Source of the DNA: Candidatus Parcubacteria bacterium
GTDB taxonomy: Bacteria; Patescibacteriota; Patescibacteriia; Patescibacteriales; UBA12465
Direction of reading: 5' to 3'
Assembly (NCBI GenBank): GCA_023444045.1
Contig: JAEZRQ010000001.1
Span: 2,000 to 65,999 of the forward strand
DNA: 64,000 bases
The position numbers and the translations under genes were made by a program. Position 1 is the stretch's first letter. Every line of letters starts with the position of its first letter. Under the pieces are notes generated by a model. It saw only the letters and a program-made list of their open reading frames with translations, was not told the origin of the DNA and did not search any database. Below, piece after piece: positions 3 to 64,000 of this stretch.

Positions 3-2129
3 AAGGCCCTAGAAAAAGAGATTATTAAACCAAATGGTCTTATTCTAACTACCGGACCAACTGGGTCAGGAAAGACAACTACCCTGTATGCAATTTTAAA
101 TAAATTAAATAAACCGGGTACTAAAATAATTACCTTAGAAGACCCAATAGAATACCAACTGCCCGGGATTAACCAAAGTCAAGTTGATAACAAAAAAGGC
201 TACTCCTTCTCTGATGGACTAAGATCAATTTTAAGACAAGACCCTAATGTTTTGATGATTGGTGAGGTCAGAGACCTTGAAACCGCTGAAATTGCCGTTC
301 AATCATCTATTACTGGTCACTTAGTACTGTCAACTCTGCACACTAATGATGCTGCTGGAGTTATCCCCCGTCTGATTGACTTGGGAGTTAAGCCTTACTT
401 CCTGGTACCTTCTATTAATGCTGTTGTTGGTCAAAGATTAGTGAGAAAATTATGTCCTCACTGCCGAAAGGAGCACGAATTAAGTCTTGAAGAAAAAGAA
501 CAGGTTGATAAAATTCTAGCAGTTATTTCACCTAAGTCAGGCATTAGTATCCCACACAACCTACCAAAAATGTACCGAGCTGGTGATGGCTGCTCTCATT
601 GTAATTACACCGCTTACAAAGGACGTCTGGGTATTTATGAAATATTTACCATGGCCGACAACATTAAACAATTAACTATTGATAGAGCGCCATCTTTTAA
701 AATTTTGCAACAGGCGATAGAAAACGGCATGATTACTATGCTTCAAGATGGTATTTTAAAATGTTTTGAAGGAATAACCTCACTTGAAGAGGTCTACCGA
801 GTAGTTGGCAACTTTGATTATGTTAATGAGTTGTATGATATTGTCGTTTCACAAACAATTGGCCGCGGACTTAAAATTACTAACACAGATCTAGAAAAAG
901 CCCAGAATATTACCCAAGATATTAATGAATTATCTGAAATGGTGAAAAATATCCCGTCAAAAGAAGTGATTAACTTAATAATGTCTTTGGCTATTTCTAA
1001 AGACGCCGGTGATATCCATATTGAACCAAGTGATAAAGTTGTTAAGGTTCGCTTTAGAATTGATGGGGTTTTACATGATATTATTAATCTCCCAACCACA
1101 GTTTACCTGCCAGTATTATCAGAAATGAAAATTCTATCTGGTTTTGCTACTAATGTTAAAGTTGCTACCTTAGATGGACGCTTTAGTCTGCACTTAAGTG
1201 ACCGAAAAATGGATTGTCGTTTATCTATTATCTCGGGTGGATACGGGGAAACTATTGTTATTAGATTACTCTCTACTGCGGCAGTTAATTTAAGTATGGA
1301 AAATCTTGGTATTACTTCAACCGCTTTTAGTTCATTGCAAAATGCCATGAAAAAAACTAAAGGTATAATTATTACTACCGGACCAACTGGATCAGGAAAG
1401 ACAACCACCCTGTATGCAATTTTAAACAAACTAAATAAGCCAGATATTAAAATTATTACTATTGAGGATCCGATAGAATATCAACTGGCTGGTATAATGC
1501 AAACCCAAATTGACCCCGAACATGGCTATACCTTTGCTTCAGCCATGCGTTCTTTACTGCGTCAGAATCCCAACATTATGATGATTGGGGAAATTAGAGA
1601 TAATGAAACTGCTAAAATTGCAATTGAAGCAGCTTCAACTGGACACTTAGTACTATCAACTATTCACGCCAATAGTGCCGCGGGAGCAATTTCGCGCTTT
1701 TCTGGCTTAGGGGTTGATAGGCAATCACTAGCTAATTCCATGGAGTTTTCTATTGGACAACGGCTAGTAAGGCGCTTATGCCCCCATTGCAAAAAGATTG
1801 CTTCAATTGATAGCGAAACTCTTGACCGGGTAAAAATTATTTTAAGCCAAATAAAAAATCCAACCGTTGTTATTCCTTCAGAATTAATTTTCTTCACCAG
1901 TTTAGGTTGTGATAAGTGCGGCAATATCGGTTATAAAGGCAGAGTTGGTTTATACGAAACCATTACCGTCACACCAGATATCCAAAAATTAATAAAAGAT
2001 GAAAATATTACTGATTATGAAATTGAACAAGCAGCTATTTTAAATGGCACTGTTACCATGATAGCTGATGGCATCTTAAAAGCTTTAAATGGCGAAACTA
2101 GTTTAGATGAGGTATTTAGAGTTATCTAA
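3..2129 (+). CDS. Tandem-fused GspE/PilB-family (T2SS/type IV pilus) ATPase with two ATPase modules in one frame; 5' end lies outside the window
   Basis: Frame 3 is open from the window edge. Walker A GPTGSGKTTT occurs at nt ~50 and again at ~1381. Each is followed by a DPIEYQ Asp box, MIGE(V/I)RD Walker B, TGHLVLST(L/I)H His box and a CPHC...CxxC tetracysteine motif. Module 2 has its own N-terminal segment (GDIHIEP...RFRIDG). Confidence 0.85.
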   Translation, partial: KALEKEIIKPNGLILTTGPTGSGKTTTLYAILNKLNKPGTKIITLEDPIEYQLPGINQSQVDNKKGYSFSDGLRSILRQDPNVLMIGEVRDLETAEIAVQSSITGHLVLSTLHTNDAAGVIPRLIDLGVKPYFLVPSINAVVGQRLVRKLCPHCRKEHELSLEEKEQVDKILAVISPKSGISIPHNLPKMYRAGDGCSHCNYTAYKGRLGIYEIFTMADNIKQLTIDRAPSFKILQQAIENGMITMLQDGILKCFEGITSLEEVYRVVGNFDYVNELYDIVVSQTIGRGLKITNTDLEKAQNITQDINELSEMVKNIPSKEVINLIMSLAISKDAGDIHIEPSDKVVKVRFRIDGVLHDIINLPTTVYLPVLSEMKILSGFATNVKVATLDGRFSLHLSDRKMDCRLSIISGGYGETIVIRLLSTAAVNLSMENLGITSTAFSSLQNAMKKTKGIIITTGPTGSGKTTTLYAILNKLNKPDIKIITIEDPIEYQLAGIMQTQIDPEHGYTFASAMRSLLRQNPNIMMIGEIRDNETAKIAIEAASTGHLVLSTIHANSAAGAISRFSGLGVDRQSLANSMEFSIGQRLVRRLCPHCKKIASIDSETLDRVKIILSQIKNPTVVIPSELIFFTSLGCDKCGNIGYKGRVGLYETITVTPDIQKLIKDENITDYEIEQAAILNGTVTMIADGILKALNGETSLDEVFRVI

Positions 2130-2133
2130 AAAT

Positions 2134-2706
2134 ATGATTAATAAAAATTTTTTAAACGGTTTAAAAAAGAGCTACAGAGAACAAGAGTCGCAGAGAAGAC
2201 AAATTATTTCTTTGTCTAATGAAGTTTTGTTTCATTCTAAAAAAGCAATCTTTGCCCTACACCGCCATGATCTTAAAATTGCTGAAGAAAAATTAACGGA
2301 GATGGAGGTGGTTTTAACTAAATTAGAAAAAAAGTTTGGCGTTAAAAGAATTGAAGAAGAGGGGGCATACCGTGCTGCTACTGAGGAATATGTAGAAGCA
2401 AAATTACTAGCCGCTGTTGTTAAGGGGCAAAAGATTGATAAAATTAAAGGTTTAAAGTTAGATAATGACGCCTATTTAGGAGGAATTTGCGACCTACTAG
2501 GTGAAATGGTCAGACTAGCAACCAATGAGGCGGCGGCTGGAAAGTTTACTGAAGTAGAAAAAATAAAAAAGTTTGCTAGTGAAATAATGGATCAACTGAT
2601 TGACTTTGACATGACGGGCTATCTTAGAACCAAATATGATCAAGCCCGTGGCCATTTAAGAAAACTAGAACAGATGGCTTATGAAATAAAATTAAGAGTA
2701 AACTAA
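2134..2706 (+). CDS. Translin-family (COG2178-like) putative nucleic-acid-binding protein
   Basis: All-helical ~190 aa protein with DAYLGGICDLLGEMVRLA, resembling the translin/TRAX YLxGxxDLTGELxR signature. Start placed at ATG 2134, just after the upstream stop. Confidence 0.6.
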   Translation: MINKNFLNGLKKSYREQESQRRQIISLSNEVLFHSKKAIFALHRHDLKIAEEKLTEMEVVLTKLEKKFGVKRIEEEGAYRAATEEYVEAKLLAAVVKGQKIDKIKGLKLDNDAYLGGICDLLGEMVRLATNEAAAGKFTEVEKIKKFASEIMDQLIDFDMTGYLRTKYDQARGHLRKLEQMAYEIKLRVN

Positions 2707-25788: not shown

Positions 25789-26712
25789 TTACCAATAATA
25801 CCCATATAGCTCTCCTAATTCCATTGCATCATTCATAATTTCCTTAAAAACTTTCCTTCCTTTTTTAATCTTTCCTCTTCTTAATAAAGAAAGGCTGGTT
25901 CCGGTAGCAATCTGTCCGGCAATTTGTAAAACAGATAAACCAAAACTAATGCCAGCATTTCCAGTTTTATCTGATTGCTGAATCAAATTTATTCCCCAAC
26001 CAATTTCTGATTGAAGTTTAGAGATTTGTAAAATAGCTACCCCACAGCCAAAGAAAGAAAGATTTTTAGATTTCTGCAGAAAAGTCACTCCTAAAAGAAT
26101 CTCAGAGGAAACTCCTATTTGGAAAAGTGACACCCCAATTATCATACTGGGATGGAAAGCCTTCTGTATTAAAGACAATCCAAAACCAACATGAGAATCT
26201 TCTTTAGATAACTGGATTAATGATGCTCCAATAAATAAAAGCGATTCTAGACCACTTTTCTGATAGAGAGTGACTCCAAAAAATACTGAAGAAAAATCCT
26301 TCGCTTTTTGGTAGAGAGATACTCCCAAAAAAACAAAAACTTCTTTTCCAATTTGACAAAAACTCAGTCCAAAAGTCAGAGCTGGTAGCTTAGCTTTTTG
26401 ATAAGCAGAAACCCCGGCCACTATATTCGCGCTGTGTTTAGCTTTTTGATAAAAGGATAAACCGATAAAACCATAAGCACTTTCTTGAGCCCATTGAAAT
26501 AGCGGTATTAAAGAATAAATACTGCCATTATAATTTATTCCTCCCAGAATAGAAAAAATATTTTTTCTCTCGTCCTTCCAAGGAGAAAACAACAAAAACA
26601 AAGGAATAAACCAAGCAGCCTGAAGACTGAAGAGCAAAACACAAAATAAAGCAGCCAAAATGGCTAAAGAATAATTTACTAAAATCATTCTTCTTTTTAA
26701 TTTTCTTTTCAT
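25789..26712 (-). CDS. Membrane-anchored protein built from ~13 tandem 15-17 aa GxSxxQ repeats (orphan)
   Basis: N-terminal basic and TM region, then repeats such as GLSFYQKAKHSAN, GVSAYQKAKLPAL, GVSLYQKAKDFSS, GVTLYQKSGLESL, GASLIQLSKEDSH and GLSLIQKAFHPSM. A minus-strand terminator lies at ~25745-25775. Confidence 0.7.
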   Translation of the reverse strand: MKRKLKRRMILVNYSLAILAALFCVLLFSLQAAWFIPLFLLFSPWKDERKNIFSILGGINYNGSIYSLIPLFQWAQESAYGFIGLSFYQKAKHSANIVAGVSAYQKAKLPALTFGLSFCQIGKEVFVFLGVSLYQKAKDFSSVFFGVTLYQKSGLESLLFIGASLIQLSKEDSHVGFGLSLIQKAFHPSMIIGVSLFQIGVSSEILLGVTFLQKSKNLSFFGCGVAILQISKLQSEIGWGINLIQQSDKTGNAGISFGLSVLQIAGQIATGTSLSLLRRGKIKKGRKVFKEIMNDAMELGELYGYYW

Positions 26713-28043: not shown

Positions 28044-28138
28044 TTTAGTTTGATTTGTCTTTTAGGCAATAACAGTTTATTATATAACTATCATAAAACA
28101 ATGTTTTAAAAAGGGCAATGCCCCTTTATTCTTTAATT

Positions 28139-31100
28139 ATGTATTTAGAAAAACTAGAAATTCAAGGATTTAAATCTTTTGCTAATAAAAATACTTTAAT
28201 TTTCCCCGGCTTGATAAACGGCGGAAAAAGAGGCCTCACCTCAATTGTTGGGCCCAATGGATCGGGTAAATCAAATATTGCCGATGCCATTCGTTGGGTA
28301 CTTGGTGAGCAGAGTTTAAAAACCCTAAGAGGTAAAAAAAGTGAAGATGTTATCTTCTCTGGCTCTGATCAAAAGAATCAGTTGAGTTTTGCTGAGGTTT
28401 CTTTAATTTTAAACAACCAAGATAAAAGTGCTTTAAGAAATATTAACGACTTACAAGTAGAAAGTAATGATGCTAAAGAAATTTCTGATTTTAATTTAGT
28501 AAAAGAATTTTTAAAAAGCGATGAAATTATTATTGCTCGCCGCATTTACCGTAGTGGCGATAGTGAATATTTAATCAATAACAAAAGAGTTCGCCTGGCG
28601 GATATTCAAATGCTGCTAGCTAAGGCCAGTGTCGGACAAAAAACATATAGTGTTATCGGTCAGGGAATGGTAGAAAATTTTTTAAATACTAACGCCTCTG
28701 AAAGAAAAGATTTTTTTGATGAGGCCACCGGCGTTAAACAGTTTCAGATTAAAAGAGAAATGTCTTTAAACAAGCTTGAAAGCAGTTATGAAAATCTGCA
28801 ACAAGTAGAAATGCTACTTACCGAAATTAGGCCGCGTCTTAAAAGCTTAACCAGACAAGTAGAAAGACTAAAAAAACGCAGCGAATTAGAAACTGAATTA
28901 AGCAACCATCAATTTAATTACTACCATTTCTTACATGAAGAAGCGAGTGTTAAATTGGAAAAAGCTAATAATAAGTTTTTAGAATTAGAAAAAATAAAAA
29001 TAGAAAAAGAAGACAAATTAGGTAAACTTAATGAAGAATTAAATTTAATTAGAAACACTAACAATTTTCAGGAGATTAATAGTTTACAGCCGAGACTGAA
29101 AGAACTTGAAATTGAAAAAAATCAGCTCCTTAAATCTTTAGCCAAACTACAAGCTGAACTGGAAATACAACTAGAGTCTCAGGGACAATTTGACATTTCT
29201 TGGTTGAATAATAAGCACAGCGAATTAAAAGCAAGTCTAGAAAAGATATCAAGTGAACTAACATCTCTAGAAAATAATCAAAACGAGACTGAAGAAAACA
29301 ATTACCAGACGGAGATAACTCAAATAGAAAAAGAGATCAATACGGCCTATGAAATTAGGCGCCAAATTGAGAAAAAAGAGGGGCAAAAAAACGAAATTCT
29401 AAAACAAATTAATAAGTTAGAGGCGGTTTTAGAGGCTAATTTAGAAGCCCAAGGACAATATGATGTTTCTTGGTTAAATAATAAGAAAGAAGAGCTAGCT
29501 TTGTCTCTTAACTCTTTAAATGATGAACTAAATTCTTTAGAGAAAGATAGTGGGAATGAAAAAAGTAATATTTTAAGAAAAGAATTAGAAGAGATTACCG
29601 CCACTTTAAATAAACTAAACCAGGAGTTACTAACAATTAAGAATGAGCTTAAAAAGCCTGGCGAAATAAAAAATAATCGCGAAGAAGTAAGTAGAGTGGT
29701 TGAAGAATTTTTAAACCGCCTAGAAGAAATTAGAAAAGAAAATGATTTGGAAAAAATAAAAAAATTAATAAGTGAGGCTAAAGCAAGCTTTCAAGAACAG
29801 ATAAAGGATTATCTAGCCGATGAAAATGTTGATAAAATCAACCGCATCAAAGAAATTCAAGATGAAATAATTGAGTTAGGCGAACAGAGGCAAGCGCTAA
29901 ATAGCCAGTTAAGTGAGGAGCGCTTACGTCTAAACTCCATTAACGAGCGCCTACGTTTGCTGAAGAATCAAAAAGAACAAAGCGAGAAGGAGGTTACTGA
30001 TATTGAGTTAAAAATTGCTAAAAGCCAAATTAAATTTGACGCCTCTGCAATTGAGACCGATAAAAATAAACATCTAAAAGAACTAAATATTTTAGACCAA
30101 GAAATAAAAGATTTAATTCCTCAAAGCCAAACTTACAAATTACAAGAAAAAAAACAGGTACTAATACAAAAGTTAAATGAATACCGTTTAAGCATCTCAG
30201 CAACCAAGGAAAGGGTTCGCTTATTAAAGAGCCAGAAAGAACAAAGTGAGAAGGAGGTTACTGATATTGAGTTAAAAATTGCTAAAAGCCAAATTAAATT
30301 TGATGCCAGTAAAATTGAAAGTGAGAAGTCTGAAATTAATAAACAACTGCAAATAGTTGAAAAAGAAATTGGTGAGATGGAAAGTAAAATTGCTAAAATA
30401 AATGAGGCTAAAGAAAAAGAAAAGGCTCAGATGTTTGCGCTGCAGAGCCGCTTACAGGAAGCTCAACAAGAAATTAACTCTTTGGCGGCCGAACTTAGTG
30501 ATTTAAAAATCGAAGCCACTAGACAAGAAACTAAACTAGAGGATATTGAAAACAATATTCGTAATGATGAATTAAATTTAGGTGAGATTAAAAATCACCA
30601 AATCAATGAAGAAGAGATTGATATCAATCGTTGGCATAAAAGAATTATTGAATGCAAAAATCAATTGGAATTAATTGGCGGTATTGATCCGGAAACGGAG
30701 AAGGAATTCAATGAAACCAAAGAACGTTTTGATTTCTTAAGTAAACAAACAAGCGACCTTAATGAAGCAGTTAAGTCTTTAGAAAAGATTATTTCTGAGC
30801 TTGATGTAAATATTAAAGACCGCTTTGACCATGAATTTAATATTATTGCTGAAAAATTTAGTGAGTATTTCAAAATCCTATTTAATGGCGGAAATGCTAA
30901 AATATTTAAAATAACTGAAGAGGAAAAAAATGATAATCTTGTCAGTGAACAAAGTTCTTCTGAAAATAGCAACCCCAGCAGTGATAACTTAAAGAAAGTT
31001 AAACTGCTAAAAAAGAGAAATGCTCTTGGTTTATCTGGCATTGAGATTCAAGCCACTCCTCCGGGCAAAAAAATTCAAACAATCTCCATGCTTTCTGGTG

Positions 31101-31381
31101 GAGAACGGGCTCTGACCGCGATTGCCTTAATCTGTGCTATTATCAGCGCCAACCCCTCTCCTTTTGTAGTTTTAGATGAGGTTGATGCCGCTCTAGATGA
31201 GGCTAACTCTGAACGTCTAGCCCAAATTTTAGATGACCTATCCAATCAAACACAATTTATTGTCATTACCCATAACCGTGCTTCTATGAAAAGAGCGAGC
31301 GTGCTCTATGGAGTCACGATGCAAGCCGATGGCGTCAGTAAACTGCTCAGTGTTAAACTAGAGGATGCCCCAAGTAAATAA
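28139..31381 (+). CDS. smc: SMC-family chromosome segregation ATPase with no recognisable hinge domain
   Basis: N-terminal head (MYLEKLEIQGFKSF...GPNGSGKSNIADAIRWVLGEQS...RGxxxEDVIF). C-terminal head (LSGGERALTAIAL signature, FVVLDEVDAALDE Walker B, ITHN). About 650 aa of uninterrupted heptad-like sequence lies between them. An ATG at 28118 is a possible alternative start. Confidence 0.85.
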   Translation: MYLEKLEIQGFKSFANKNTLIFPGLINGGKRGLTSIVGPNGSGKSNIADAIRWVLGEQSLKTLRGKKSEDVIFSGSDQKNQLSFAEVSLILNNQDKSALRNINDLQVESNDAKEISDFNLVKEFLKSDEIIIARRIYRSGDSEYLINNKRVRLADIQMLLAKASVGQKTYSVIGQGMVENFLNTNASERKDFFDEATGVKQFQIKREMSLNKLESSYENLQQVEMLLTEIRPRLKSLTRQVERLKKRSELETELSNHQFNYYHFLHEEASVKLEKANNKFLELEKIKIEKEDKLGKLNEELNLIRNTNNFQEINSLQPRLKELEIEKNQLLKSLAKLQAELEIQLESQGQFDISWLNNKHSELKASLEKISSELTSLENNQNETEENNYQTEITQIEKEINTAYEIRRQIEKKEGQKNEILKQINKLEAVLEANLEAQGQYDVSWLNNKKEELALSLNSLNDELNSLEKDSGNEKSNILRKELEEITATLNKLNQELLTIKNELKKPGEIKNNREEVSRVVEEFLNRLEEIRKENDLEKIKKLISEAKASFQEQIKDYLADENVDKINRIKEIQDEIIELGEQRQALNSQLSEERLRLNSINERLRLLKNQKEQSEKEVTDIELKIAKSQIKFDASAIETDKNKHLKELNILDQEIKDLIPQSQTYKLQEKKQVLIQKLNEYRLSISATKERVRLLKSQKEQSEKEVTDIELKIAKSQIKFDASKIESEKSEINKQLQIVEKEIGEMESKIAKINEAKEKEKAQMFALQSRLQEAQQEINSLAAELSDLKIEATRQETKLEDIENNIRNDELNLGEIKNHQINEEEIDINRWHKRIIECKNQLELIGGIDPETEKEFNETKERFDFLSKQTSDLNEAVKSLEKIISELDVNIKDRFDHEFNIIAEKFSEYFKILFNGGNAKIFKITEEEKNDNLVSEQSSSENSNPSSDNLKKVKLLKKRNALGLSGIEIQATPPGKKIQTISMLSGGERALTAIALICAIISANPSPFVVLDEVDAALDEANSERLAQILDDLSNQTQFIVITHNRASMKRASVLYGVTMQADGVSKLLSVKLEDAPSK
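29972..30043 (+). repeat. Intragenic direct repeat, copy 1 (SMC C-terminal arm)
   Basis: This 72-nt stretch is 70/72 identical to 30236-30307 and encodes KEQSEKEVTDIELKIAKSQIKFDA. Confidence 0.9.
30236..30307 (+). repeat. Intragenic direct repeat, copy 2 (SMC C-terminal arm)
   Basis: See 29972-30043. The copies are offset by 264 nt (88 codons). Confidence 0.9.
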
Positions 31382-32850: not shown

Positions 32851-33261
32851 ATGAAAAAAAATAAGAAAGTTTATTTTGCCCTACTACTTGCTTCTTTGCT
32901 CTTATTTATTGGTTTAAAAACTAGTTTAGCTACCAGTATAGTAGACACCAGTAACCCGGATTACAAAACCGGTAATTATGATCTCTCAGATGTTGGTAAT
33001 TATGCTATTTATATTATTGAATTAATCTTGAGTTTAGTTGGCACCTTGTCACTGATCGCCTTTATTTACGGTGGGGTAACCTTTTTAATATCAGCTGGTA
33101 GCTCTGATAAAGTTAAGAAGGGGATGGATATTATTAAGGCAGCTGTTGTGGGTCTAATAATAACATTTTCCAGTGTTTTAATTATGAATCTATTCTTTAG
33201 CGGCCTTGGGGTTTCCTGGAACCCCAACACGGGAGCAGTTTCTAGTAGTCCAAAAAAATGA
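32851..33261 (+). CDS. VirB2/TrbC-like two-TM pilin paralog (distal copy)
   Basis: Signal peptide, variable region, TM1, loop SAGSSDKVKKGMDIIKAAVVGL, TM2. This is the same architecture as the 35345-37804 array, though the loop here diverges from the WMTAxGN motif of the array. Confidence 0.6.
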   Translation: MKKNKKVYFALLLASLLLFIGLKTSLATSIVDTSNPDYKTGNYDLSDVGNYAIYIIELILSLVGTLSLIAFIYGGVTFLISAGSSDKVKKGMDIIKAAVVGLIITFSSVLIMNLFFSGLGVSWNPNTGAVSSSPKK

Positions 33262-35344: not shown

Positions 35345-35728
35345 ATGAAAAAAATTGCTAAACACTTGCTATCTTTATTCGTTTTAACTTTGGTTTTTGT
35401 GCCAGCTCTAAGTATGGCTGCCCTTGACACCACAAAGGTGGGAATCACTGGTGCAGACGGTATTGAAGGAAAGATAGACCTAGGAAAGAAAACACCAGTA
35501 GAAACAGCTACCAGCTTAATCAACTTTGGTATGACTTTCTTGGCTTTAATCGCGGTGGTAATCGTTATTGCCGCTGGCTTCAAATGGATGACTGCTGGAG
35601 GAAGTGATGAAAAGATTACTGAAGCAAAAAAGTTAATGACCGCCGGCGTTGTTGGTATTGTTATTATTCTTTCTGCTTGGGGTATCGCTAGATATGTACT
35701 CGAAAAACTTGTTACCGTTACTGCTTAA
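35345..35728 (+). CDS. VirB2/TrbC-like two-TM pilin paralog 1 (candidate major subunit)
   Basis: Signal peptide ...ALSMAA, variable region, TM1, GFKWMTAGGSDEKITEAKK loop, TM2. It has its own promoter (TTGTCT-17-TGcTAAAAT) and a strong SD (GGGTGGTG). Confidence 0.75.
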   Translation: MKKIAKHLLSLFVLTLVFVPALSMAALDTTKVGITGADGIEGKIDLGKKTPVETATSLINFGMTFLALIAVVIVIAAGFKWMTAGGSDEKITEAKKLMTAGVVGIVIILSAWGIARYVLEKLVTVTA

Positions 35729-35827
35729 TATTTTTTCGAAAATCGATTTTAGAAAAAAGTGGCCCTCATTTATTTAATGGGGGTTACCGCTTTGGAGCCA
35801 AAGTATTGGCTTCAGAGCAGTAAATAT

Positions 35828-36220
35828 ATGAAATCAATCAAAACTTTAATTTTATCTTTTTTAATTAGCCTTCCTCTATTGGGAGCCAATTTTGCTTTAG
35901 CTACTGTCACCGCCCCCCTAGATGGGTTGAAGGAAACTGGTGGGCAAATACCGGCTTATAATAGTCAAACGGGCGACACCAGAACAGCCAGAGAGTCTGT
36001 GCTTGATAAAATTGGCGGTATTGTTGGCTTAATTCTATCATTTTTAGGTGTTATCTTTTTAGGATTAACTGTCTTTGCTGGTTTCCTGTGGATGACAGCC
36101 CAAGGGAATAACGCCAAGGTAGAACGGGCTAAAGACTTACTAATTAATGCTGTTATTGGCTTAATAATAATTGTGGCCGCCTATTCAATTACCCTATTTA
36201 TTGGACGAGAATTAACATAG
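35828..36220 (+). CDS. VirB2/TrbC-like pilin paralog 2
   Basis: Same architecture, with loop GFLWMTAQGNNAKVERAKD. Start moved to ATG 35828 (MKSIKTL signal peptide). Confidence 0.72.
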   Translation: MKSIKTLILSFLISLPLLGANFALATVTAPLDGLKETGGQIPAYNSQTGDTRTARESVLDKIGGIVGLILSFLGVIFLGLTVFAGFLWMTAQGNNAKVERAKDLLINAVIGLIIIVAAYSITLFIGRELT

Positions 36221-58643: not shown

Positions 58644-59387
58644 CTATCGTAAAATCAACTCAACCGCTGACTGATATCTTTCACCCTTGTAAGAGATTAG
58701 ACCCTTTTTATAAATTGGATTACTTAAAATCTTTTTAATTGTTGATGGACTCCACTTCTCGTTTCCTCTCTTAGTCGGGATACTTAAATCCGTTAAAGTA
58801 TTAGCAATTATTTTTAGGGACTTCTTTTTTCTTTTTAGATTAAATATCAACATAATCGTTTTAGCTTCTTGTTGGTTAATTACTAAGTTGCCCTCATTGT
58901 TGTCATAACCATAAATTTTACCACCATGCCAACCACCATTTTTAGCCTTTCTTTCTCTACCACCTTCAAGTCTTAAAGCGATCATTGCTCTTTCAAATTC
59001 AGAGAATACACCAAGCATTTGTCTAAACGCCTTTCTGAAAGGATCGCTACTGTCTAAATCAGGCTCAAGAGCTGAAATTAATTGCTTCTCATTTTTATTA
59101 AACTCTTTTATCAAACCCTCTTGAATATATAAATCTCTTGCTAACCTATCTAACTTATAGATGATTATATGTTCCGCTTCTGTGTTGTTTAATAAATCAA
59201 GAAGATTTTTTAATCCTGGTCTATCGCTTAATCCACCACTGAACCCATCATCTGAAAATTCTTCAATAATCAGGTATTCATTTTTGATAGCAAATTCTCT
59301 GACCTTCATTTTTTGAACTTCAATTGTTCCTTCTTCTTTTTGAAGATCAGTTGATACACGATAATAGGCAAGTGCTTTTTTTGTCAT
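58644..59387 (-). CDS. Serine recombinase, short form (resolvase domain plus partial recombinase domain, no zinc ribbon)
   Basis: YYRVSTDLQ catalytic Ser, YKLDRLARD, FSEFERAMIALRLEGG, then WSPSTIKKILSNPIYKG, a recombinase-domain motif. Confidence 0.8.
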   Translation of the reverse strand: MTKKALAYYRVSTDLQKEEGTIEVQKMKVREFAIKNEYLIIEEFSDDGFSGGLSDRPGLKNLLDLLNNTEAEHIIIYKLDRLARDLYIQEGLIKEFNKNEKQLISALEPDLDSSDPFRKAFRQMLGVFSEFERAMIALRLEGGRERKAKNGGWHGGKIYGYDNNEGNLVINQQEAKTIMLIFNLKRKKKSLKIIANTLTDLSIPTKRGNEKWSPSTIKKILSNPIYKKGLISYKGERYQSAVELILR

Positions 59388-59540: not shown

Positions 59541-60722
59541 CTAAAAAGCAGAATTTATAGTATAGAATTTCTTATTTTTTTCTTTTGTCTCTACTATTAT
59601 TTTTTGTTCGTTCTCAAGAGTTTTTAAAATCTTTAACAAGACATTTTTTCCAATAGTTCCTTGAAATTGTTTACTTAAATCCTCTTGAGTTATTGGAGAA
59701 TCACTTTCTTCTATAAAAGACAGAACAGAATCTTGTTGATGTAGTGTTTTAATTTGTTGGTTATGAGTATCTTCAGAATAACCTTTAAAAACAAAATTTA
59801 ATTTATCTTCTTCTTGGGTTGGAGAAATAATAAATGGTTTGAGTTCTGGTTGGATGCGATTTTTTGTTTGGTTAATTATTAAATCATTACCAACTCTTTT
59901 TATCATCATCTGACATTCTAGTGCGGCTAAAATATCAACAGAGCCACGCATCATTTGATTGCCATAATTTTGATTATCTTGACCCTTTCGATTATGGTGA
60001 TTTATAAGAACCGTTATTCCTTTTTCTTTTAATACAGATATTTTACGGAACAAACTCGACATATCTTTAGCACTATTTTCATCACCAGAGTGAATTCTAA
60101 TTAAACTATCAATAATAAGAACTTTAATTTTTCTTCTTGTTAATTCGCTTAATAACATTTCGATATTTTCATAGTTATCAGCCATAAAACCAGTCATAAT
60201 ACTAAAACTAAGATTGGTATCTCCGTCATCTCCTAATTTAATCAACCTGTCTTTTATTAATTTGTCTGAATCCTCTTCATCGATTATTAAGACATTTGAT
60301 TTTTTTACGTTAAAAACGCCGAAGACGGGCTCACCTTTAGAAATACATAAAGCAAAATATAAAGTTAGCCAAGTTTTAAAACTCCCTGGTTTTGCAGAAA
60401 GAATGTTTATTGATCCTTCTGGTAAGATGTCTTGTATAATCCAATCTTGATGTATATCAGATGTTATTAATGTTTTACTAGACTGTATTTTAAGAGGATT
60501 ATTTTTTGCGTTTAATTTTAATATCCTTTTTCTATTTTTAATTTCTTGTCTGACTAATTGTTTTAAAGCACCCATTTTTAGCGGGCTATTAATTGCTTGA
60601 TTTAATCCTTTTAAATATCTAACAACTGTTTTAAAATCAGTATTATCAACCAAATCAATAACATGAGGAATAATTTTTTTAATATCCATATTATTAAGAC
60701 TTAAAATATTTATTAATAGCAT
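59541..60722 (-). CDS. RepA/AAA_25-like RecA-fold ATPase with C-terminal winged-helix (replication or mobilisation protein)
   Basis: P-loop-like SAKPGSFKT, VLIIDSLIRIHSGDENSAKDM (Walker B region typical of the RepA/KaiC-like fold), NHHNRKG. An alternative start lies at 60689. Confidence 0.6.
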   Translation of the reverse strand: MLLINILSLNNMDIKKIIPHVIDLVDNTDFKTVVRYLKGLNQAINSPLKMGALKQLVRQEIKNRKRILKLNAKNNPLKIQSSKTLITSDIHQDWIIQDILPEGSINILSAKPGSFKTWLTLYFALCISKGEPVFGVFNVKKSNVLIIDEEDSDKLIKDRLIKLGDDGDTNLSFSIMTGFMADNYENIEMLLSELTRRKIKVLIIDSLIRIHSGDENSAKDMSSLFRKISVLKEKGITVLINHHNRKGQDNQNYGNQMMRGSVDILAALECQMMIKRVGNDLIINQTKNRIQPELKPFIISPTQEEDKLNFVFKGYSEDTHNQQIKTLHQQDSVLSFIEESDSPITQEDLSKQFQGTIGKNVLLKILKTLENEQKIIVETKEKNKKFYTINSAF

Positions 60723-60930
60723 CTTTAGCTATTTCGTGGGCATAAAAAATATCATCCTCAACTGGACAGTAAAAATCTCTATCAATTGTTCGGTACTCTT
60801 TTTTATGATCAAGTTTGATAAAGATCATATAGTTGTGAGGAATTTTTGTTATTGAGTAGTTTTTACTATCAAATAACAAAATACCAATTCTTTTTTGTCT
60901 TGCTCTTTCAAGCGCTTGTAGTTTGTTCAT
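60694..60930 (-). CDS. Hypothetical protein (78 aa) of the mobile element
   Basis: ORF only. Positioned directly upstream of the ATPase. Confidence 0.4.
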   Translation of the reverse strand: MNKLQALERARQKRIGILLFDSKNYSITKIPHNYMIFIKLDHKKEYRTIDRDFYCPVEDDIFYAHEIAKDAINKYFKS

Positions 60931-60939
60931 AGGTTTTGC

Positions 60940-61023
60940 GGGTTAATTAGATAATTTTATTGCTCGAAAATATCCAAGATTATCTCGACATATTCTATGA
61001 GGTTTTGATTATCTAATTTACCC
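60940..61023. repeat. 16-bp inverted repeat pair flanking a 52-bp spacer
   Basis: gggttaattagataat (60940-60955) versus the reverse complement of attatctaatttaccc (61008-61023), 15/16 match. Each arm is preceded by aggttttg. Confidence 0.7.
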
Positions 61024-61096
61024 ATAAAAAAATAGACTTAATTTCTTAAGTCTATTTTAACGAGTTTCAATATTGATACCGTGACATTTGTTGGTG

Positions 61097-61858
61097 TTAA
61101 CAAATGTTTGATATTTTATCTTTAAATCTTTTTTTTCTTTGTCTTAAAGTTGAGAGAGATTTGTTTTTTACTTTTTTATTATCATCAAGATTAAAAACGT
61201 CTAATGCGTCATAACCATCTAATTTATCCTGATATACCTCTTTATCTTTACTATAAAGTTTACTTGCTCTGTCCCTTCCTTTTTTATAATTGTTCATATT
61301 CTTTTGAAAGAAATTCATGACAGATAATAACTCTTCCACATCTTTTTTTGTCGCATTTGGTCCACACCTTATTACCATATTCCCATATCGATCCCTCGTT
61401 AATTGAGCTTCTTTTGTTTCGGGAATAAATAAGTTGTTAAATAGAATATAATGGACAATTCCCGGGAATGGTTTTTCATTTATTAAATGATAAAAAGTTC
61501 TTTCATTTTCTAAATAGTATAAATCAGTTGGATAATTATCATTAGTTTCAGGATCAGTTAAGCAATTATAAACCTTATTTAAAAATATACTTGGGTTAGT
61601 TTTTATTATTTTTGTATTTTTTATTGAAAGATCTTTAAAGTTATTAGCCTTATTATTTATTATCCATTCTTTAAAATCCTTAGAGATAGTTTTGAATCCT
61701 TTTTTTGGTATAAGCCATTTGCTTCTTATTCGTTTAATATCCTCAATAAAAGAATCATTAAGAGTCACTTTTTCAAATAACTGTTCCATAGCACTTATTA
61801 CTGATTTATTGCGAATATTTATTTTTATATCATTGTCTTTATCCATATTTTTATCCAC
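61097..61858 (-). CDS. Hypothetical protein (253 aa) of the mobile element
   Basis: ORF with its own minus-strand terminator (~61031-61056). No motif recognised. Confidence 0.5.
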   Translation of the reverse strand: MDKNMDKDNDIKINIRNKSVISAMEQLFEKVTLNDSFIEDIKRIRSKWLIPKKGFKTISKDFKEWIINNKANNFKDLSIKNTKIIKTNPSIFLNKVYNCLTDPETNDNYPTDLYYLENERTFYHLINEKPFPGIVHYILFNNLFIPETKEAQLTRDRYGNMVIRCGPNATKKDVEELLSVMNFFQKNMNNYKKGRDRASKLYSKDKEVYQDKLDGYDALDVFNLDDNKKVKNKSLSTLRQRKKRFKDKISNIC

Positions 61859-61924
61859 TTCGTTAAAACGGAGTGTATGAATTAACTTATATTTATAGTT
61901 TAAAGCCTATAAAAATAAGCGTCA

Positions 61925-61953
61925 ATAAAAGAGGGTAACTGACTGATACCCTC
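61925..61953 (-). terminator. Intrinsic terminator after the four-gene cargo operon
   Basis: On the minus strand, gagggta-tcagtcagt-taccctc followed by ttttatt. Confidence 0.7.
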
Positions 61954-62012
61954 TCTTTCGGACTTACACAAAGTGTAAAATCGTTCTTAAGCTTCTTAGA
62001 GAATTTTGTGAA

Positions 62013-62387
62013 CTATCGATTTAAGCCATTTTTATATAAACATAAATTTAAACGAACATCCACTGCTTCCGCCTGATCTGTTGTGATGTTATTTTCCTTA
62101 GTCCAAGAAGAAACCTCGTAAGCACAATTTACTCTAATTTTTGTAGGTCTAGTGCTAAACCAATAAAAACAAAAACCCGAAATAAGAATAATAACTATAA
62201 ACAAAGAGATGCTAACTTTTTCTTGCTTCATATAATTTCGTAAAATAAGGATAATTAAAAAGCTTAATAAAATAGAGATAAAAATCATTTGTAGAATTTG
62301 ATTAGAAACAATCCAGTTAGCTAAAGGAGATAACTCATCGCCATTTAAAGCCACGCCTTTTATCAGTGTTTTAAAGAATAAAGACAT
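62013..62387 (-). CDS. Hypothetical membrane protein (124 aa, 2-3 TM)
   Basis: Hydrophobic segments. 1-nt gap to the upstream gene. Confidence 0.5.
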   Translation of the reverse strand: MSLFFKTLIKGVALNGDELSPLANWIVSNQILQMIFISILLSFLIILILRNYMKQEKVSISLFIVIILISGFCFYWFSTRPTKIRVNCAYEVSSWTKENNITTDQAEAVDVRLNLCLYKNGLNR

Positions 62388-62388
62388 A

Positions 62389-62658
62389 CTATTTTTTTGT
62401 TAAATTTATATAATTTAAGGCATTTGTTAAATTAGCAATTCCATTTTTAGCATATTCTTCTCCTTTTGTTTTTAGCCAATAATCACCAACATCTTTATAT
62501 CCTAATTTCTCAGCCATCAAGTTTACCTCTTTAATTAATAGAGTTGTTGTAATGTAAATAGAGGCGTCTCCTTGTCCCCTTGCTCTTCCTCCCCAAGAAG
62601 CTACAAAAATAGCGGTTATAATTGCCGTAATTATGGCTGTTAAAATAATAGGTAGCAT
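62389..62658 (-). CDS. Hypothetical N-terminally anchored protein (89 aa)
   Basis: TM with internal AIITAIITAI repeat, then a soluble region. Confidence 0.5.
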   Translation of the reverse strand: MLPIILTAIITAIITAIFVASWGGRARGQGDASIYITTTLLIKEVNLMAEKLGYKDVGDYWLKTKGEEYAKNGIANLTNALNYINLTKK

Positions 62659-62676
62659 AGTTTTATTAAATTTATT

Positions 62677-63363
62677 TTATAAATTATTTTTTATTACTTC
62701 TAAAATTTCTTGATTTGATAAATCGTCAATACCACATCCAGGAATTGATCCAAAAACATCTTTTATAAAAACAAAAATATAATCTGACCCAATAAGATCG
62801 CCAGATTCTTTTAATTCATAAATACTAAAAATTGCCTTGGTTTTAGATTGGTCCGGTTCTTTATTATTATTTTTTGTAATAATTAAAAATGTTTTATTAT
62901 TTGTTTGTGCTATTTTTAAAACTTTACCTCCATTGCACCCCATTATTTCACTAATTAAAAAATCTCTTTCAAAGTCTAAGATTTTTTTATCCTTATTTTC
63001 TTTAGTTACAATATTCCAATTACTACTCTTTTTGATAAAGAAATTATAAACATCAGTATTAGCGTTTGTGTGATAATCATAATAATCAGCCCCAACAATA
63101 TGAGAAACAAAGACGTTGTCATCAGTTCCATCAAAGTTTAAATCGATATAATTATTACCAGGAGCAAAAGAATATATTTTTATTTTGTCATCCTCTTGTT
63201 CTAATAACGCTTTAGAACTTGTTTTAGTTGGCTCAAATTGCTCTGGCTTATTTTGGATATCCTTTTTTTGATTTATTAAATAATATCCAAGAGAAGTTAT
63301 AAAAAATAAAACAATCAAGCCAATAAAAATTAAAAGATATTTTTTATTTATTTTTTCTGTCAT
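62677..63363 (-). CDS. Hypothetical N-terminally anchored extracytoplasmic protein (228 aa)
   Basis: One TM followed by a ~190-aa beta-rich domain containing a DLNFDGTDDNVF (calcium-binding-like) segment. Confidence 0.5.
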   Translation of the reverse strand: MTEKINKKYLLIFIGLIVLFFITSLGYYLINQKKDIQNKPEQFEPTKTSSKALLEQEDDKIKIYSFAPGNNYIDLNFDGTDDNVFVSHIVGADYYDYHTNANTDVYNFFIKKSSNWNIVTKENKDKKILDFERDFLISEIMGCNGGKVLKIAQTNNKTFLIITKNNNKEPDQSKTKAIFSIYELKESGDLIGSDYIFVFIKDVFGSIPGCGIDDLSNQEILEVIKNNL

Positions 63364-63782
63364 ATATTTTTAATTCTAGTTTCATTAAAGCTATTTATAT
63401 TATTTAAAATATCAGCGACAGAAACATTATTTTTTATTATCAACCAGTTTAATTTTGAAATTCTTGAATAAATATATTCAATTTCGTAAGAATTTTGATT
63501 TAAACCTTCTTTTAAATAAACAACAACGATATCATTTTTTAATTCAGATTCTTTTGTTCTGAAATCTTCTAACAAATTATCTCTACTTATAGATAAGTAG
63601 TCGTTAGGCATTATATGATGCTTAATAAAAATAATATCTTGACCGCTTTTTATAGCTTCAAGATATTTTTCTTCGTAATTATTTGGTTGAGTATTTTTGC
63701 TCACAATAAATGAGCTTGCCTTTGAGATGTCTTCAGCTAGATTTTTAATAGATTCTTCTTGTCCTATTAATAGTAAAATCAT
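63360..63782 (-). CDS. Hypothetical cytoplasmic protein (140 aa), first gene of the cargo operon
   Basis: ORF with a 4-nt overlap onto the next gene. No motif recognised. Confidence 0.5.
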   Translation of the reverse strand: MILLLIGQEESIKNLAEDISKASSFIVSKNTQPNNYEEKYLEAIKSGQDIIFIKHHIMPNDYLSISRDNLLEDFRTKESELKNDIVVVYLKEGLNQNSYEIEYIYSRISKLNWLIIKNNVSVADILNNINSFNETRIKNI

Positions 63783-64000
63783 ATTTAGCTAATTATAGCT
63801 TAATTATTATTACGCAAATTTTAAAAAGTAAATAGCTAAGCCGTATACAGTCCTATTTTCAAGAAAAACAGCTTAGCAATAGGGTAAGACATAAAACAGG
63901 GCAAACGGCTCAAATTTGACTGTATAGGCCGTGAATATGAGCTGATTTTAGATTATATAGAGGAAGATATCTCTTCCCAATAAAAAAACGGACACCCGAC

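What the first reader, a model, noticed from the sequence alone, without database searches (positions are those of the whole stretch)
28139..31381. SMC without a recognisable hinge, carrying mirror-symmetric duplications in both coiled-coil arms
The head halves are canonical SMC. Residues ~205-850 (numbered from the ATG at 28118) are continuous E/K/L/N-rich heptad-like sequence. No ~150-aa Gly-containing globular segment resembling the SMC hinge is present. The only break is KKPGEIKNN at aa 512-520, close to the arithmetic midpoint (~528). Two internal duplications exist. Unit A (LE.QLE.QGQ(F/Y)D(I/V)SWLNNK...) is at aa ~346-390 and ~436-480, offset 90 aa. Unit B (R(L/V)RLLK(N/S)QKEQSEKEVTDIELKIAKSQIKFDAS) is at aa ~609-643 and ~697-731, offset 88 aa. 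In an antiparallel arm, residue i pairs with about 1055-i. On that basis A1 (355) faces B2 (700) and A2 (445) faces B1 (611). The N- and C-terminal helices have therefore been lengthened by matching amounts at matching positions, a compensatory double duplication that keeps the arm in register. The B core is 70/72 nt identical between copies while its flanks have diverged, which suggests gene conversion or strong constraint.
Basis: partly seen in the sequence, partly recalled or inferred. Interest (0 to 1): 0.66.

Follow-up and report, generated by a model that had tools for sequence, protein, structure and literature searches.

The report
Hingeless SMC with doubled arm module
This is the chromosome-organising SMC ATPase of a Patescibacteria (Falkowbacteria-type) bacterium that has lost the hinge dimerisation domain and lengthened both arm helices by one matching ~90-residue module; it belongs to a large, almost undescribed clade of hingeless SMCs whose arms come in discrete lengths.

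Summary
The ORF (probable start 28139, end 31381) is an SMC with intact ATPase motifs, and it scores above NCBI's Smc equivalog cut-off. It has no hinge: Pfam SMC_hinge gives no hit at E<=10, and a local hinge HMM gives <=1.2 bits against >=113 bits in hinge-bearing relatives. AlphaFold2 makes residues 206-853 helical. The tip is a ~55-aa helical hairpin with its apex at 540-543.

Both duplications are real (A offset 90 aa, B offset 88 aa; z=17 and 20). They are old: both copies of each are conserved without indels across the family (120 homologues, 57-94% identity). Predicted helix breaks pair at i+j=1082-1086, and covariation peaks at the same register, so A1 faces B2 and A2 faces B1.

Of the nearest 139 complete cluster representatives, 132 lack a hinge. 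Their arms fall into sharp classes of ~172, ~240 and ~323 aa per strand, close to published Smc arm-length modes (163, 238, 341) and the 91-aa functional period. One-module relatives have one A/B pair; this family has two. The 70/72-nt B-core identity is gene conversion.

How the protein dimerises could not be tested. A hingeless SMC clade was reported once (2025), in a different lineage.

The parts
28139..31381 (+). smc gene. The probable true start is M8 of the 28118 ORF. Product is 1080 aa (1087 aa from 28118).
   Evidence: TIGR02168 scores 607 bits against a cut-off of 567. Best PDB sequence hits are Bacillus/Geobacillus Smc heads, E=6e-96.
28139..28732 (+). N-terminal half of the ATPase head (aa 8-205). 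Contains Walker A (GPNGSGKS, 45-52) and the FFDEATG neck anchor (199-205).
   Evidence: Invariant columns. PDB hits.
28733..29653 (+). N-terminal arm helix (aa 206-512).
   Evidence: AF2 helices 206-312, 316-353, 359-386, 390-444, 448-477 and 481-512, with arm pLDDT of 80-90. Heptad-like conserved hydrophobic pattern.
29108..29611 (+). N-strand tandem duplication (A1 aa 331-420, A2 aa 421-498+; 90-aa period).
   Evidence: No indels in 66 family members.
29135..29233 (+). A1 core 'knuckle' (aa 340-372; LE.QGQFD[IV]SWLNNK). A coiled-coil break that faces B2.
   Evidence: Conservation peak. AF2 break at 354-358 with pLDDT<50. Motif present in all 120 homologues.
29405..29503 (+). A2 core 'knuckle' (aa 430-462). 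A coiled-coil break that faces B1.
   Evidence: AF2 break at 445-447.
29654..29827 (+). Tip cap that stands in place of the hinge (aa 513-570). Order: break 513-517, helix 518-539, apex loop 540-543, helix 544-566, break 567-570.
   Evidence: AF2. No relationship to a hinge profile. The tip HMM is conserved in the two-module family and centred at 0.50 of protein length. Doublets of conserved hydrophobic residues.
29828..30676 (+). C-terminal arm helix (aa 571-853).
   Evidence: AF2 helices 571-636, 643-670, 673-721 and 731-816 onwards.
29897..30418 (+). C-strand tandem duplication (B1 aa 594-681, B2 aa 682-767; 88-aa period).
29942..30046 (+). B1 core 'knuckle' (aa 609-643; ERLRLL...K[SA]Q[IV]KFDAS). 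Faces A2.
   Evidence: AF2 break at 637-642.
30206..30310 (+). B2 core 'knuckle' (aa 697-731). Faces A1.
   Evidence: AF2 break at 722-730 with pLDDT<50.
29972..30043 (+). Gene-conversion tract, copy 1 (codons 619-642). Its partner is 30236-30307 (codons 707-730). The two are 70/72 nt identical and include a 56-nt exact run.
30236..30307 (+). Gene-conversion tract, copy 2 (codons 707-730).
30677..31381 (+). C-terminal half of the ATPase head (aa 854-1087). Contains the IGGID anchor, signature LSGGE (992-996), Walker B VVLDE (1017-1021) and H-loop H1052, plus a variable acidic/Ser-rich insert at about 930-965.
   Evidence: Invariant columns. PDB hits.

Best explanation
The gene encodes the Smc orthologue of a Falkowbacteria-type Patescibacteria genome. 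It belongs to a large Patescibacteria clade in which the ~160-aa hinge has been lost.

Architecture:
- The two arm helices are joined by a short all-helical hairpin cap (aa 513-570, apex 540-543).
- The arm is one continuous antiparallel coiled coil in register i+j of about 1084.
- It is interrupted by three matched discontinuities.
- Two of these are copies of a conserved 'knuckle', in which N-strand QGQFDxSWLNNK lies opposite C-strand KSQxKFDAS.

Evolution:
- The second knuckle arose by an ancient duplication of 90 aa in the N strand and 88 aa in the opposite part of the C strand.
- This is about one super-helical period of a coiled coil.
- The B copies are occasionally homogenised by gene conversion, most recently over 72 nt in this lineage.

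Status of each step:
- Shown: absence of the hinge, the helical tip, the duplications and their age, the matched positions, the length classes and the gene conversion.
- Inferred: the protein still acts as a chromosome-organising Smc (ATPase motifs are intact). Dimerisation is provided by the tip hairpins packing into a four-helix bundle and/or by arm-arm contacts at the conserved knuckles. Arm length is under the same periodic constraint shown experimentally for B. subtilis Smc.
For: Smc identity:
- TIGR02168 scores 607 bits, above the 567 cut-off.
- Best PDB sequence hits are Smc heads at E=6e-96, against RecN and Rad50 at 1e-5 to 1e-8.
- Walker A, signature, Walker B and H-loop residues are invariant.
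- Foldseek top hits are full-length SMC-family chains.

No hinge:
-.
- Positive controls in close relatives.
- AF2 of this protein and of a one-module relative both give an all-helical tip.

Register:
- AF2 break pairs sum to 1082, 1086 and 1083.5, and the apex gives 2 x 541.5.
- Covariation maximum lies at 1082-1085.

Duplication:
- Repeat statistics.
- A and B motifs are present twice in the whole family.
- P0128 and other ~885-aa proteins have one A and one B unit. These score equally against the A1/A2 and B1/B2 profiles and show one break pair in AF2.
- The clade {two-module family + P0128 + P0134} has 100% bootstrap support.

Length classes:
- Between-anchor residues cluster at 345, 480 and 646.
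- Buermann et al. 2017 report natural arm-length modes of 163, 238 and 341 aa, a 91-aa functional period, and a functional hinge-to-zinc-hook swap (PMC5344682).

Gene conversion.
Against: - Dimerisation could not be modelled.
- The covariation signal is modest (z of about 2-3, Neff 44).
- No coordinates or contact map were available, so the facing of A and B rests on matched breaks, covariation and comparative geometry.
- In P0128 the break-pair sums drift (860, 851, 845), so the register is only approximate there.
- ScpA and ScpB were not found in this 64-kb window, and the rest of the genome is unseen. A second, canonical Smc elsewhere cannot be excluded.
- P0128 nests inside the long-arm clade with 79% support. 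The number and direction of paired module changes is therefore not fully resolved.
- The 745-to-885 step (about 68 aa per strand) is not a 90-aa module.
Confidence: 0.78

Rival explanations
1. A canonical hinge is present but too diverged to be recognised by sequence models.
For: Patescibacteria proteins are often highly diverged. The heads in the first AF2 model were poorly predicted.
Against: - Only about 55 residues lie between the last matched coiled-coil positions (513-570). They are predicted as two helices, with none of the beta or Gly-rich elements of a hinge.
- Pfam and a clade-specific hinge HMM detect hinges in sister proteins at 1e-28 to 1e-89 and give nothing here.
- hhalign probability is 0.5%.
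Confidence: 0.02
2. The protein is an SMC-like paralogue with a different job, such as repair or defence in the manner of Rad50/SbcC, RecN or Wadjet JetC. The genome would then carry a normal Smc elsewhere.
For: - Hingeless head-plus-coiled-coil architecture is typical of Rad50/SbcC and RecN.
- NCBI names many homologues only 'AAA family ATPase'.
- Only 64 kb of the genome is visible.
- No scpAB was found in the window.
Against: - The protein scores above the Smc equivalog cut-off, while the Rad50, SbcC, RecN and ASRP models fall far below theirs.
- There is no CxxC and no Cys anywhere in the arm.
- Heads cluster with bacterial Smc, sister to Chloroflexota Smc. Hinge-bearing and hingeless proteins are immediate sisters (100% bootstrap), as expected for orthologous replacement.
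- Housekeeping synteny (rplS, cmk) is conserved.
- No nuclease or kleisin-like partner gene lies adjacent.
Confidence: 0.1
3. The conserved A/B knuckles are not dimer contacts. They are either flexible elbows that let the arm fold back, or docking sites for another subunit. The tip does not dimerise, so the two Smc molecules are held together only by engaged heads and the kleisin.
For: - The knuckles are the most conserved arm segments yet have the lowest pLDDT (<50). This is typical of hinges or partner-dependent motifs.
- The A motif already exists in hinge-bearing relatives, so it did not evolve to replace the hinge.
- Elbows are known in MukBEF, cohesin and condensin (established knowledge).
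Against: - The tip helices carry conserved hydrophobic doublets, a wider apolar face than a two-helix hairpin needs.
- Engineered Smc needs some dimerisation domain at the arm end (PMC5344682).
- None of this is decisive.
Confidence: 0.3
4. The internal similarity reflects convergent constraint on coiled-coil sequence, or an assembly artefact, rather than true duplications.
For: - Coiled coils are low-complexity and give spurious self-matches.
- One homologue (P0002) lacks exactly one B period, which shows that assemblers can mishandle this repeat.
Against: - The alignments of 78 and 87 residues extend well beyond the motifs (z=17-20).
- The same two-copy layout occurs in 119 of 120 independent homologues from many samples, without indels.
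- One-copy relatives exist.
Confidence: 0.02

Closest known systems
Prokaryotic Smc of Smc-ScpAB (B. subtilis type; TIGR02168)
   Same: ABC-type head with all catalytic motifs, a long intramolecular antiparallel coiled coil, an arm of about 323 aa per strand (close to the canonical ~340), and best sequence and fold matches.
   Different: No hinge domain. The arm ends in a ~55-aa helical hairpin. It has two copies of a clade-specific coiled-coil discontinuity that is not detectable in Firmicutes or Chloroflexota Smc. Partner genes were not seen.
Engineered B. subtilis Smc variants (Mini-Smc, and Smc(Zh) with a Rad50 zinc hook in place of the hinge; Buermann et al. 2017, PMC5344682)
   Same: The engineered variants show that the hinge fold is dispensable if another dimeriser is present. 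They also show that arms work only in discrete length windows with a 91-aa period. The natural proteins here are hingeless, fall into discrete arm classes (172, 240, 323), and differ by a 90/88-aa module.
   Different: These proteins are natural and ancient, not engineered. No zinc hook or other recognisable dimeriser is present. Function has not been tested.
'Hinge-less SMC' clade from ocean metagenomes, annotated Actinomycetes (Environ Microbiome 2025, PMC12153180)
   Same: SMC heads, an antiparallel coiled coil without a hinge, no CxxC, and apparently not a paralogue of a regular Smc.
   Different: The reported lineage differs (marine Actinomycetes against Patescibacteria/Falkowbacteria). 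That paper gives no analysis of arm modules, arm-length classes, register or tip. Whether the two clades are related was not tested here.
Rad50/SbcC and RecN (SMC-like repair ATPases without a hinge)
   Same: Head plus a folded-back coiled coil, with dimerisation at the coiled-coil apex by a small element.
   Different: No CxxC zinc hook. Heads are far closer to Smc (E=6e-96 against 1e-5 to 1e-8). NCBIfam scores are far below the Rad50, SbcC and RecF cut-offs. No Mre11/SbcD-like neighbour was seen among the ORFs examined.

Membership tests
Prokaryotic Smc (TIGR02168 SMC_prok_B) | Whole-protein score above the curated equivalog cut-off | tested here: met
   607 bits against a cut-off of 567.35.
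Prokaryotic Smc | ABC ATPase head with Walker A, Q-loop, signature LSGGE, Walker B/E and H-loop | tested here: met
   GPNGSGKS 45-52, LSGGE 992-996, VVLDE 1017-1021 and H1052 are invariant across the clade. Smc head structures match at E=6e-96.
Prokaryotic Smc | Central hinge dimerisation domain (Pfam PF06470) | tested here: not met
   No hit at E<=10. Local hinge HMM gives <=1.2 bits, against >=113 bits in hinge-bearing proteins. hhalign probability 0.5%. AF2 tip is all-helical.
Prokaryotic Smc | Long intramolecular antiparallel coiled-coil arm of a permitted length | tested here: met
   AF2 helices from 206 to 853 with arm pLDDT of 80-90. 646 residues between anchors, about 323 per strand, against the canonical ~326 by the same anchors.
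Prokaryotic Smc | Works with the kleisin ScpA and the kite protein ScpB | not testable with these tools
   No ScpA or ScpB Pfam hit in 20 size-matched ORFs of the window. The rest of the genome is not available.
Rad50/SbcC | CxxC zinc hook at the coiled-coil apex | tested here: not met
   No Cys occurs in the arm before residue 846, and there is no CxxC (sequence). Rad50 and SbcC NCBIfam scores are 24-42 bits, against cut-offs of 478-1087.
RecN | RecN-type head and a short coiled coil (~550 aa protein) | tested here: not met
   RecN chains match only the C-terminal head at E=5e-6. The protein is 1080 aa.
Archaea-specific SMC-related protein (ASRP, NF045487) | Score above the equivalog cut-off | tested here: not met
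   70 bits against a cut-off of 300.
Natural 'hinge-less SMC' (PMC12153180) | SMC-type head, folded-back coiled coil, no hinge, no zinc hook | tested here: met
.
Natural 'hinge-less SMC' (PMC12153180) | Membership of the same phylogenetic clade (marine Actinomycetes) | not tested
Homologues here are named Falkowbacteria, Uhrbacteria or Patescibacteria.

The most novel reading that the evidence does not exclude
Patescibacteria run their only Smc-ScpAB-type chromosome motor without a hinge. A minimal helical tip (perhaps together with conserved FDxS 'knuckles' along the arm) is a new kind of SMC dimerisation device. Arm length in this clade evolves by adding or removing whole super-helical-period modules simultaneously on both strands. 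That would give a natural series (about 172, 240 and 323 aa) for testing why SMC arms are length-quantised and whether the hinge has any role in DNA loading or loop extrusion.
Probability: 0.45. Interest if true: 0.82.

Novelty: new variant of a known kind. Interest (0 to 1): 0.7.

Why it matters
The hinge is textbook-essential for SMC dimerisation. It has been proposed as a DNA-binding site and as a DNA entry gate.

A large natural clade that lacks it would show that evolution has repeatedly dispensed with the hinge. Here 132 of the nearest 139 complete 50%-identity cluster representatives are hingeless, and hinge-bearing and hingeless proteins occur as immediate sisters. This extends the one engineered result (a zinc-hook swap in B. 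subtilis) and the single 2025 metagenomic report.

The hingeless proteins still obey the discrete arm-length classes and the ~91-aa period found experimentally. In this gene, one class step can be seen as a matched 90/88-aa duplication on the two strands. Together these are independent natural evidence that arm geometry, not the hinge, is the constrained element.

The small proteins of 745-1085 aa are also attractive for cryo-EM and single-molecule work.

Tried and rejected
Dimerisation is therefore untested.
- Alternative register i+j of about 1118, which would pair N-strand breaks 388 and 479 with the B breaks: rejected because covariation shows nothing there and the tip geometry would be asymmetric.
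- Tip as a vestigial hinge: hhalign probability 0.5%, the same as an arm control.
- A tip HMM from this family does not detect the tips of the 745 and 885 classes. Homology of the tips across classes is unresolved.
- A/B unit HMMs find nothing in canonical Firmicutes or Chloroflexota Smc. The knuckle cannot be equated with a known Bs Smc coiled-coil break.
It gave little taxonomy for the short classes. The cluster look-up gave few names.
- An ScpA/ScpB search of size-matched window ORFs was negative but uninformative for the whole genome.
- Foldseek of the full model against the PDB only recovers generic SMC-family chains at very low TM-scores.
- The regex-based arm anchors matched too few proteins and were replaced by alignment-based anchors.
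- P0002 (992 aa, one B copy missing) was considered as a natural 'unbalanced arm' intermediate. The deletion is exactly 264 nt, and its junction lies in a 56-nt exact repeat longer than the assembler's k-mer. It is more likely an assembly collapse.
Full report
**1. What is in the sequence**

- The ORF 28118..31381 (+) encodes 1087 aa.
- The family consensus and the 94%-identical homologue P0001 (1080 aa) begin at M8.
- Pfam finds SMC_N spanning 9-1074 plus generic P-loop models. It finds no SMC_hinge even at E<=10.
- NCBIfam places the protein above the curated cut-off of the Smc equivalog TIGR02168 (607 bits against 567). It falls far below the cut-offs of the Rad50, SbcC, RecF and ASRP models.
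- The best solved-structure matches by sequence are Bacillus/Geobacillus Smc heads (E=6e-96). RecN and Rad50 match at 1e-5 to 1e-8.
- Walker A, the signature motif, Walker B and the H-loop are invariant across the clade.

**2. The repeats are real**

- Direct nucleotide repeats lie 264 nt apart (29954-30105 and 30218-30369) and 270 nt apart (29172-29215 and 29442-29485).
- At protein level, 331-408 aligns with 421-498 (offset 90, z=17) and 594-680 aligns with 682-767 (offset 88, z=20) against shuffled controls.
- Codons 619-642 and 707-730 are 70/72 nt identical, exactly as claimed.

**3. The repeats are old and constrained**

- All 120 best homologues (57-94% identity, 1077-1110 aa) lack a precomputed hinge domain. 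Sources name them Falkowbacteria or Patescibacteria.
- All carry LE.QGQFD[VI]SWLNNK twice, exactly 90 aa apart. The B motif K[SA]Q[IV]KFDAS sits at positions exactly 88 aa apart; it was matched at both positions in many homologues and at only one or neither in the more divergent ones. The exception to the two-copy layout is P0002.
- The units contain no indels in 66 aligned members.
- They are the conservation peaks of the arm.

**4. Gene conversion**

- B-core identity between the two copies of one protein is 0.83-0.91 in three separate lineages: the window plus P0001, P0025/P0026, and P0092. Between genomes it averages 0.54.
- In the window tract, 22 of 24 identical residues use the same codon. 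In the A core only 6 of 18 do.
- The near-identity is therefore recent conversion laid over protein-level constraint.

**5. No hinge, with positive controls**

- AF2 with a 66-sequence alignment gives mean pLDDT 69, with arms at 80-90 and poorly modelled heads. Residues 206-853 are helical.
- Short breaks fall at 313-315, 354-358, 387-389, 445-447, 478-480, 513-517, 540-543, 567-570, 637-642, 671-672 and 722-730.
- The centre is two short helices (518-539 and 544-566). There are no strands and no Gly-rich lobes.
- Among the 150 best 50%-identity cluster representatives found with a family profile, seven proteins of 995-1035 aa carry a clear SMC_hinge at about aa 420-550 (E=1e-28 to 1e-31).
- A hinge HMM built from these plus canonical SMCs separates all sequences cleanly. 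Hinge-bearing proteins score >=113 bits and all others score <=1.2 bits.
- By that test, 132 of 139 complete proteins (138 representatives plus the window protein) are hingeless, as are all 120 family homologues.
- Profile-profile comparison of the tip region against the hinge profile gives 0.5% probability. An arm control gives 1.2%.

**6. Register and facing**

AF2 breaks form matched pairs:

| N-strand break | C-strand break | Sum |
|---|---|---|
| A1, 356 | B2, 726 | 1082 |
| A2, 446 | B1, 640 | 1086 |
| 515 | 568.5 | 1083.5 |
| apex loop, 541.5 | (same) | 1083 |

- APC-corrected mutual information between N-strand and C-strand columns, averaged along anti-diagonals, peaks at i+j=1083-1084.
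- With seven more divergent sequences added, the global maximum over 1000-1170 is a hump at 1082-1085 with z=2.1-2.9. This is modest (Neff 44) but coincides with the break pairs.
The conclusion does not.
- An alternative register near 1118 has no covariation support.

**7. Comparative test of the module model**

- Complete representatives fall into sharp length classes.
- Counting residues between the conserved anchors G205 (FFDEATG) and I853 (IGGID), hingeless proteins show modes at 345 (n=40), 480 (n=75) and 646 (n=11). That is about 172, 240 and 323 aa per strand. Hinge-bearing proteins give 607.
- Unit HMMs find no A or B unit in the 745 class, one A-like unit (sometimes with a detectable B) in the 885 class, and two in the long class.
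- In P0128 (896 aa), the single A and B units score equally against the A1/A2 and B1/B2 profiles. Two-module proteins at about 50% identity keep the proximal/distal distinction.
- AF2 of P0128 (pLDDT 80.6, pTM 0.59) shows one A break (331-333), one B break (525-530), a tip break pair (395-396 and 454-457) and an apex loop (420-425), again with no hinge.
- The window protein is therefore a P0128-type protein plus one extra 90/88-aa module.

**8. Phylogeny (head domains, NJ, 100 bootstraps)**

| Clade | Bootstrap (%) |
|---|---|
| All short Patescibacteria-type SMCs, sister to Chloroflexota | 100 |
| Two-module family + one-module P0128 + P0134 | 100 |
| Hinge-bearing P0144 + hingeless P0146 | 100 |
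| Hinge-bearing P0174/P0240/P0231 + hingeless P0259 | 100 |
| Chloroflexota including hingeless L015 | 91 |

- In P0146 the hinge of P0144 is replaced by about 70 aa of helical-looking sequence.
- L015 (871 aa) comes from a MAG labelled Anaerolineae. The Uhrbacteria gene L004 (744 aa) is also hingeless.
- Hinge loss therefore looks recurrent. Deep branching is unresolved, and P0128 groups with P0130-P0132 at 79%. The number and direction of paired module changes is not settled.

**9. Relation to what is known**

- Buermann et al. 2017 (PMC5344682) reported natural prokaryotic Smc arm-length modes at 163, 238, 341 (423) and 515 aa.
- They found a 91-aa periodicity of function in resized B. subtilis Smc, close to the coiled-coil super-helical period.
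- They also showed normal growth when the hinge is replaced by a Rad50 zinc hook.
- Their survey needed an alignable hinge, so it could not include hingeless proteins.
- The classes found here (172, 240, 323) and the module size (90/88) match those numbers closely.
- A 2025 paper (PMC12153180) described a 'hinge-less SMC' clade from ocean metagenomes annotated as Actinomycetes. It offers no arm analysis, no mechanism, and nothing on CPR bacteria.
- No paper in the searched library describes hingeless Smc in Patescibacteria.

**10. Mechanism**

Shown:
- Intact ATPase motifs.
- A folded-back arm of canonical length.
- A helical tip.
- Matched, conserved discontinuities.

Inferred:
- The protein is the lineage's Smc.
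- The tip hairpins pair into a four-helix bundle. The tip helices carry conserved hydrophobic doublets at 527/528, 531/532, 550/551 and 565/566.
- The FDxS knuckles may add arm-arm contacts, or act as elbows or docking sites. They are the most conserved arm segments but have the lowest confidence in the monomer model.
- The A motif is also present in hinge-bearing relatives, so it predates hinge loss.
- Adding about one super-helical turn to both strands would keep head-to-tip phase, which is the property Buermann et al. found critical.

**11. Limits**

- No contact map or dimer model was available.
- Covariation is weak.
- Partner genes and the rest of the genome are unseen.
- The single homologue lacking one B copy (P0002) shares the window's synteny. 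It is missing exactly 264 nt, with the junction inside a 56-nt exact repeat, so it is probably an assembly collapse.

**12. Verdict**

- The gene is a new variant of a known kind: a natural hingeless Smc, here with a documented one-period paired arm extension. It sits within a large and essentially undescribed Patescibacteria clade.

Noticed in passing
window 25789-26712 (-): A 307-aa ORF made largely of ~20-aa tandem repeats of the type G(V/L)S(L/F)YQKAK, with a hydrophobic N-terminus. It looks like a repeat-built membrane or surface protein.
   Followed up: no
window 32851-33261, 35345-35728, 35759-36220 (+); syntenic L081 6749-11280: An array of small membrane proteins downstream of smc. 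In the syntenic contig they carry Pfam T4SS_pilin (PF18895) hits, with six or more paralogues in a row.
   Followed up: partly
window 2107-2706 (+): A 199-aa protein with a clear Translin-family hit (PF01997, E=3e-20). This family is mostly eukaryotic and archaeal.
   Followed up: no
window 58644-59387 (-) and 60000-64000: A serine recombinase (Resolvase + Recombinase domains) lies next to a stretch of markedly lower GC (27% against ~33%). This may be an integrated mobile element.
   Followed up: no
L081 2302-5280 (protein P0002): A homologue from a Logan assembly lacks exactly one 264-nt B period, which would give an unbalanced arm. The junction lies in a 56-nt exact repeat, so assembly collapse is the likelier reading. 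A real recombinant allele is not excluded.
   Followed up: yes
L015 3001-5613; L014 3001-6084: A MAG labelled Anaerolineae carries an 871-aa hingeless SMC that groups with Chloroflexota Smc (91% bootstrap). Another Anaerolineae MAG has a short-armed, hinge-bearing SMC of 1028 aa. Hinge loss may also have occurred outside Patescibacteria.
   Followed up: partly
window aa 100-125 and 930-965 of the SMC (nt ~28415-28492 and ~30905-31012): There are two variable, low-confidence inserts in the head: an Asn/Asp-rich loop and an acidic/Ser-rich loop. They account for part of the length differences between family members.
   Followed up: no
window, whole: There are twelve tRNA genes in 64 kb. Two of them (Val, Leu) sit immediately upstream of the rplS-cmk-smc region.
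   Followed up: no
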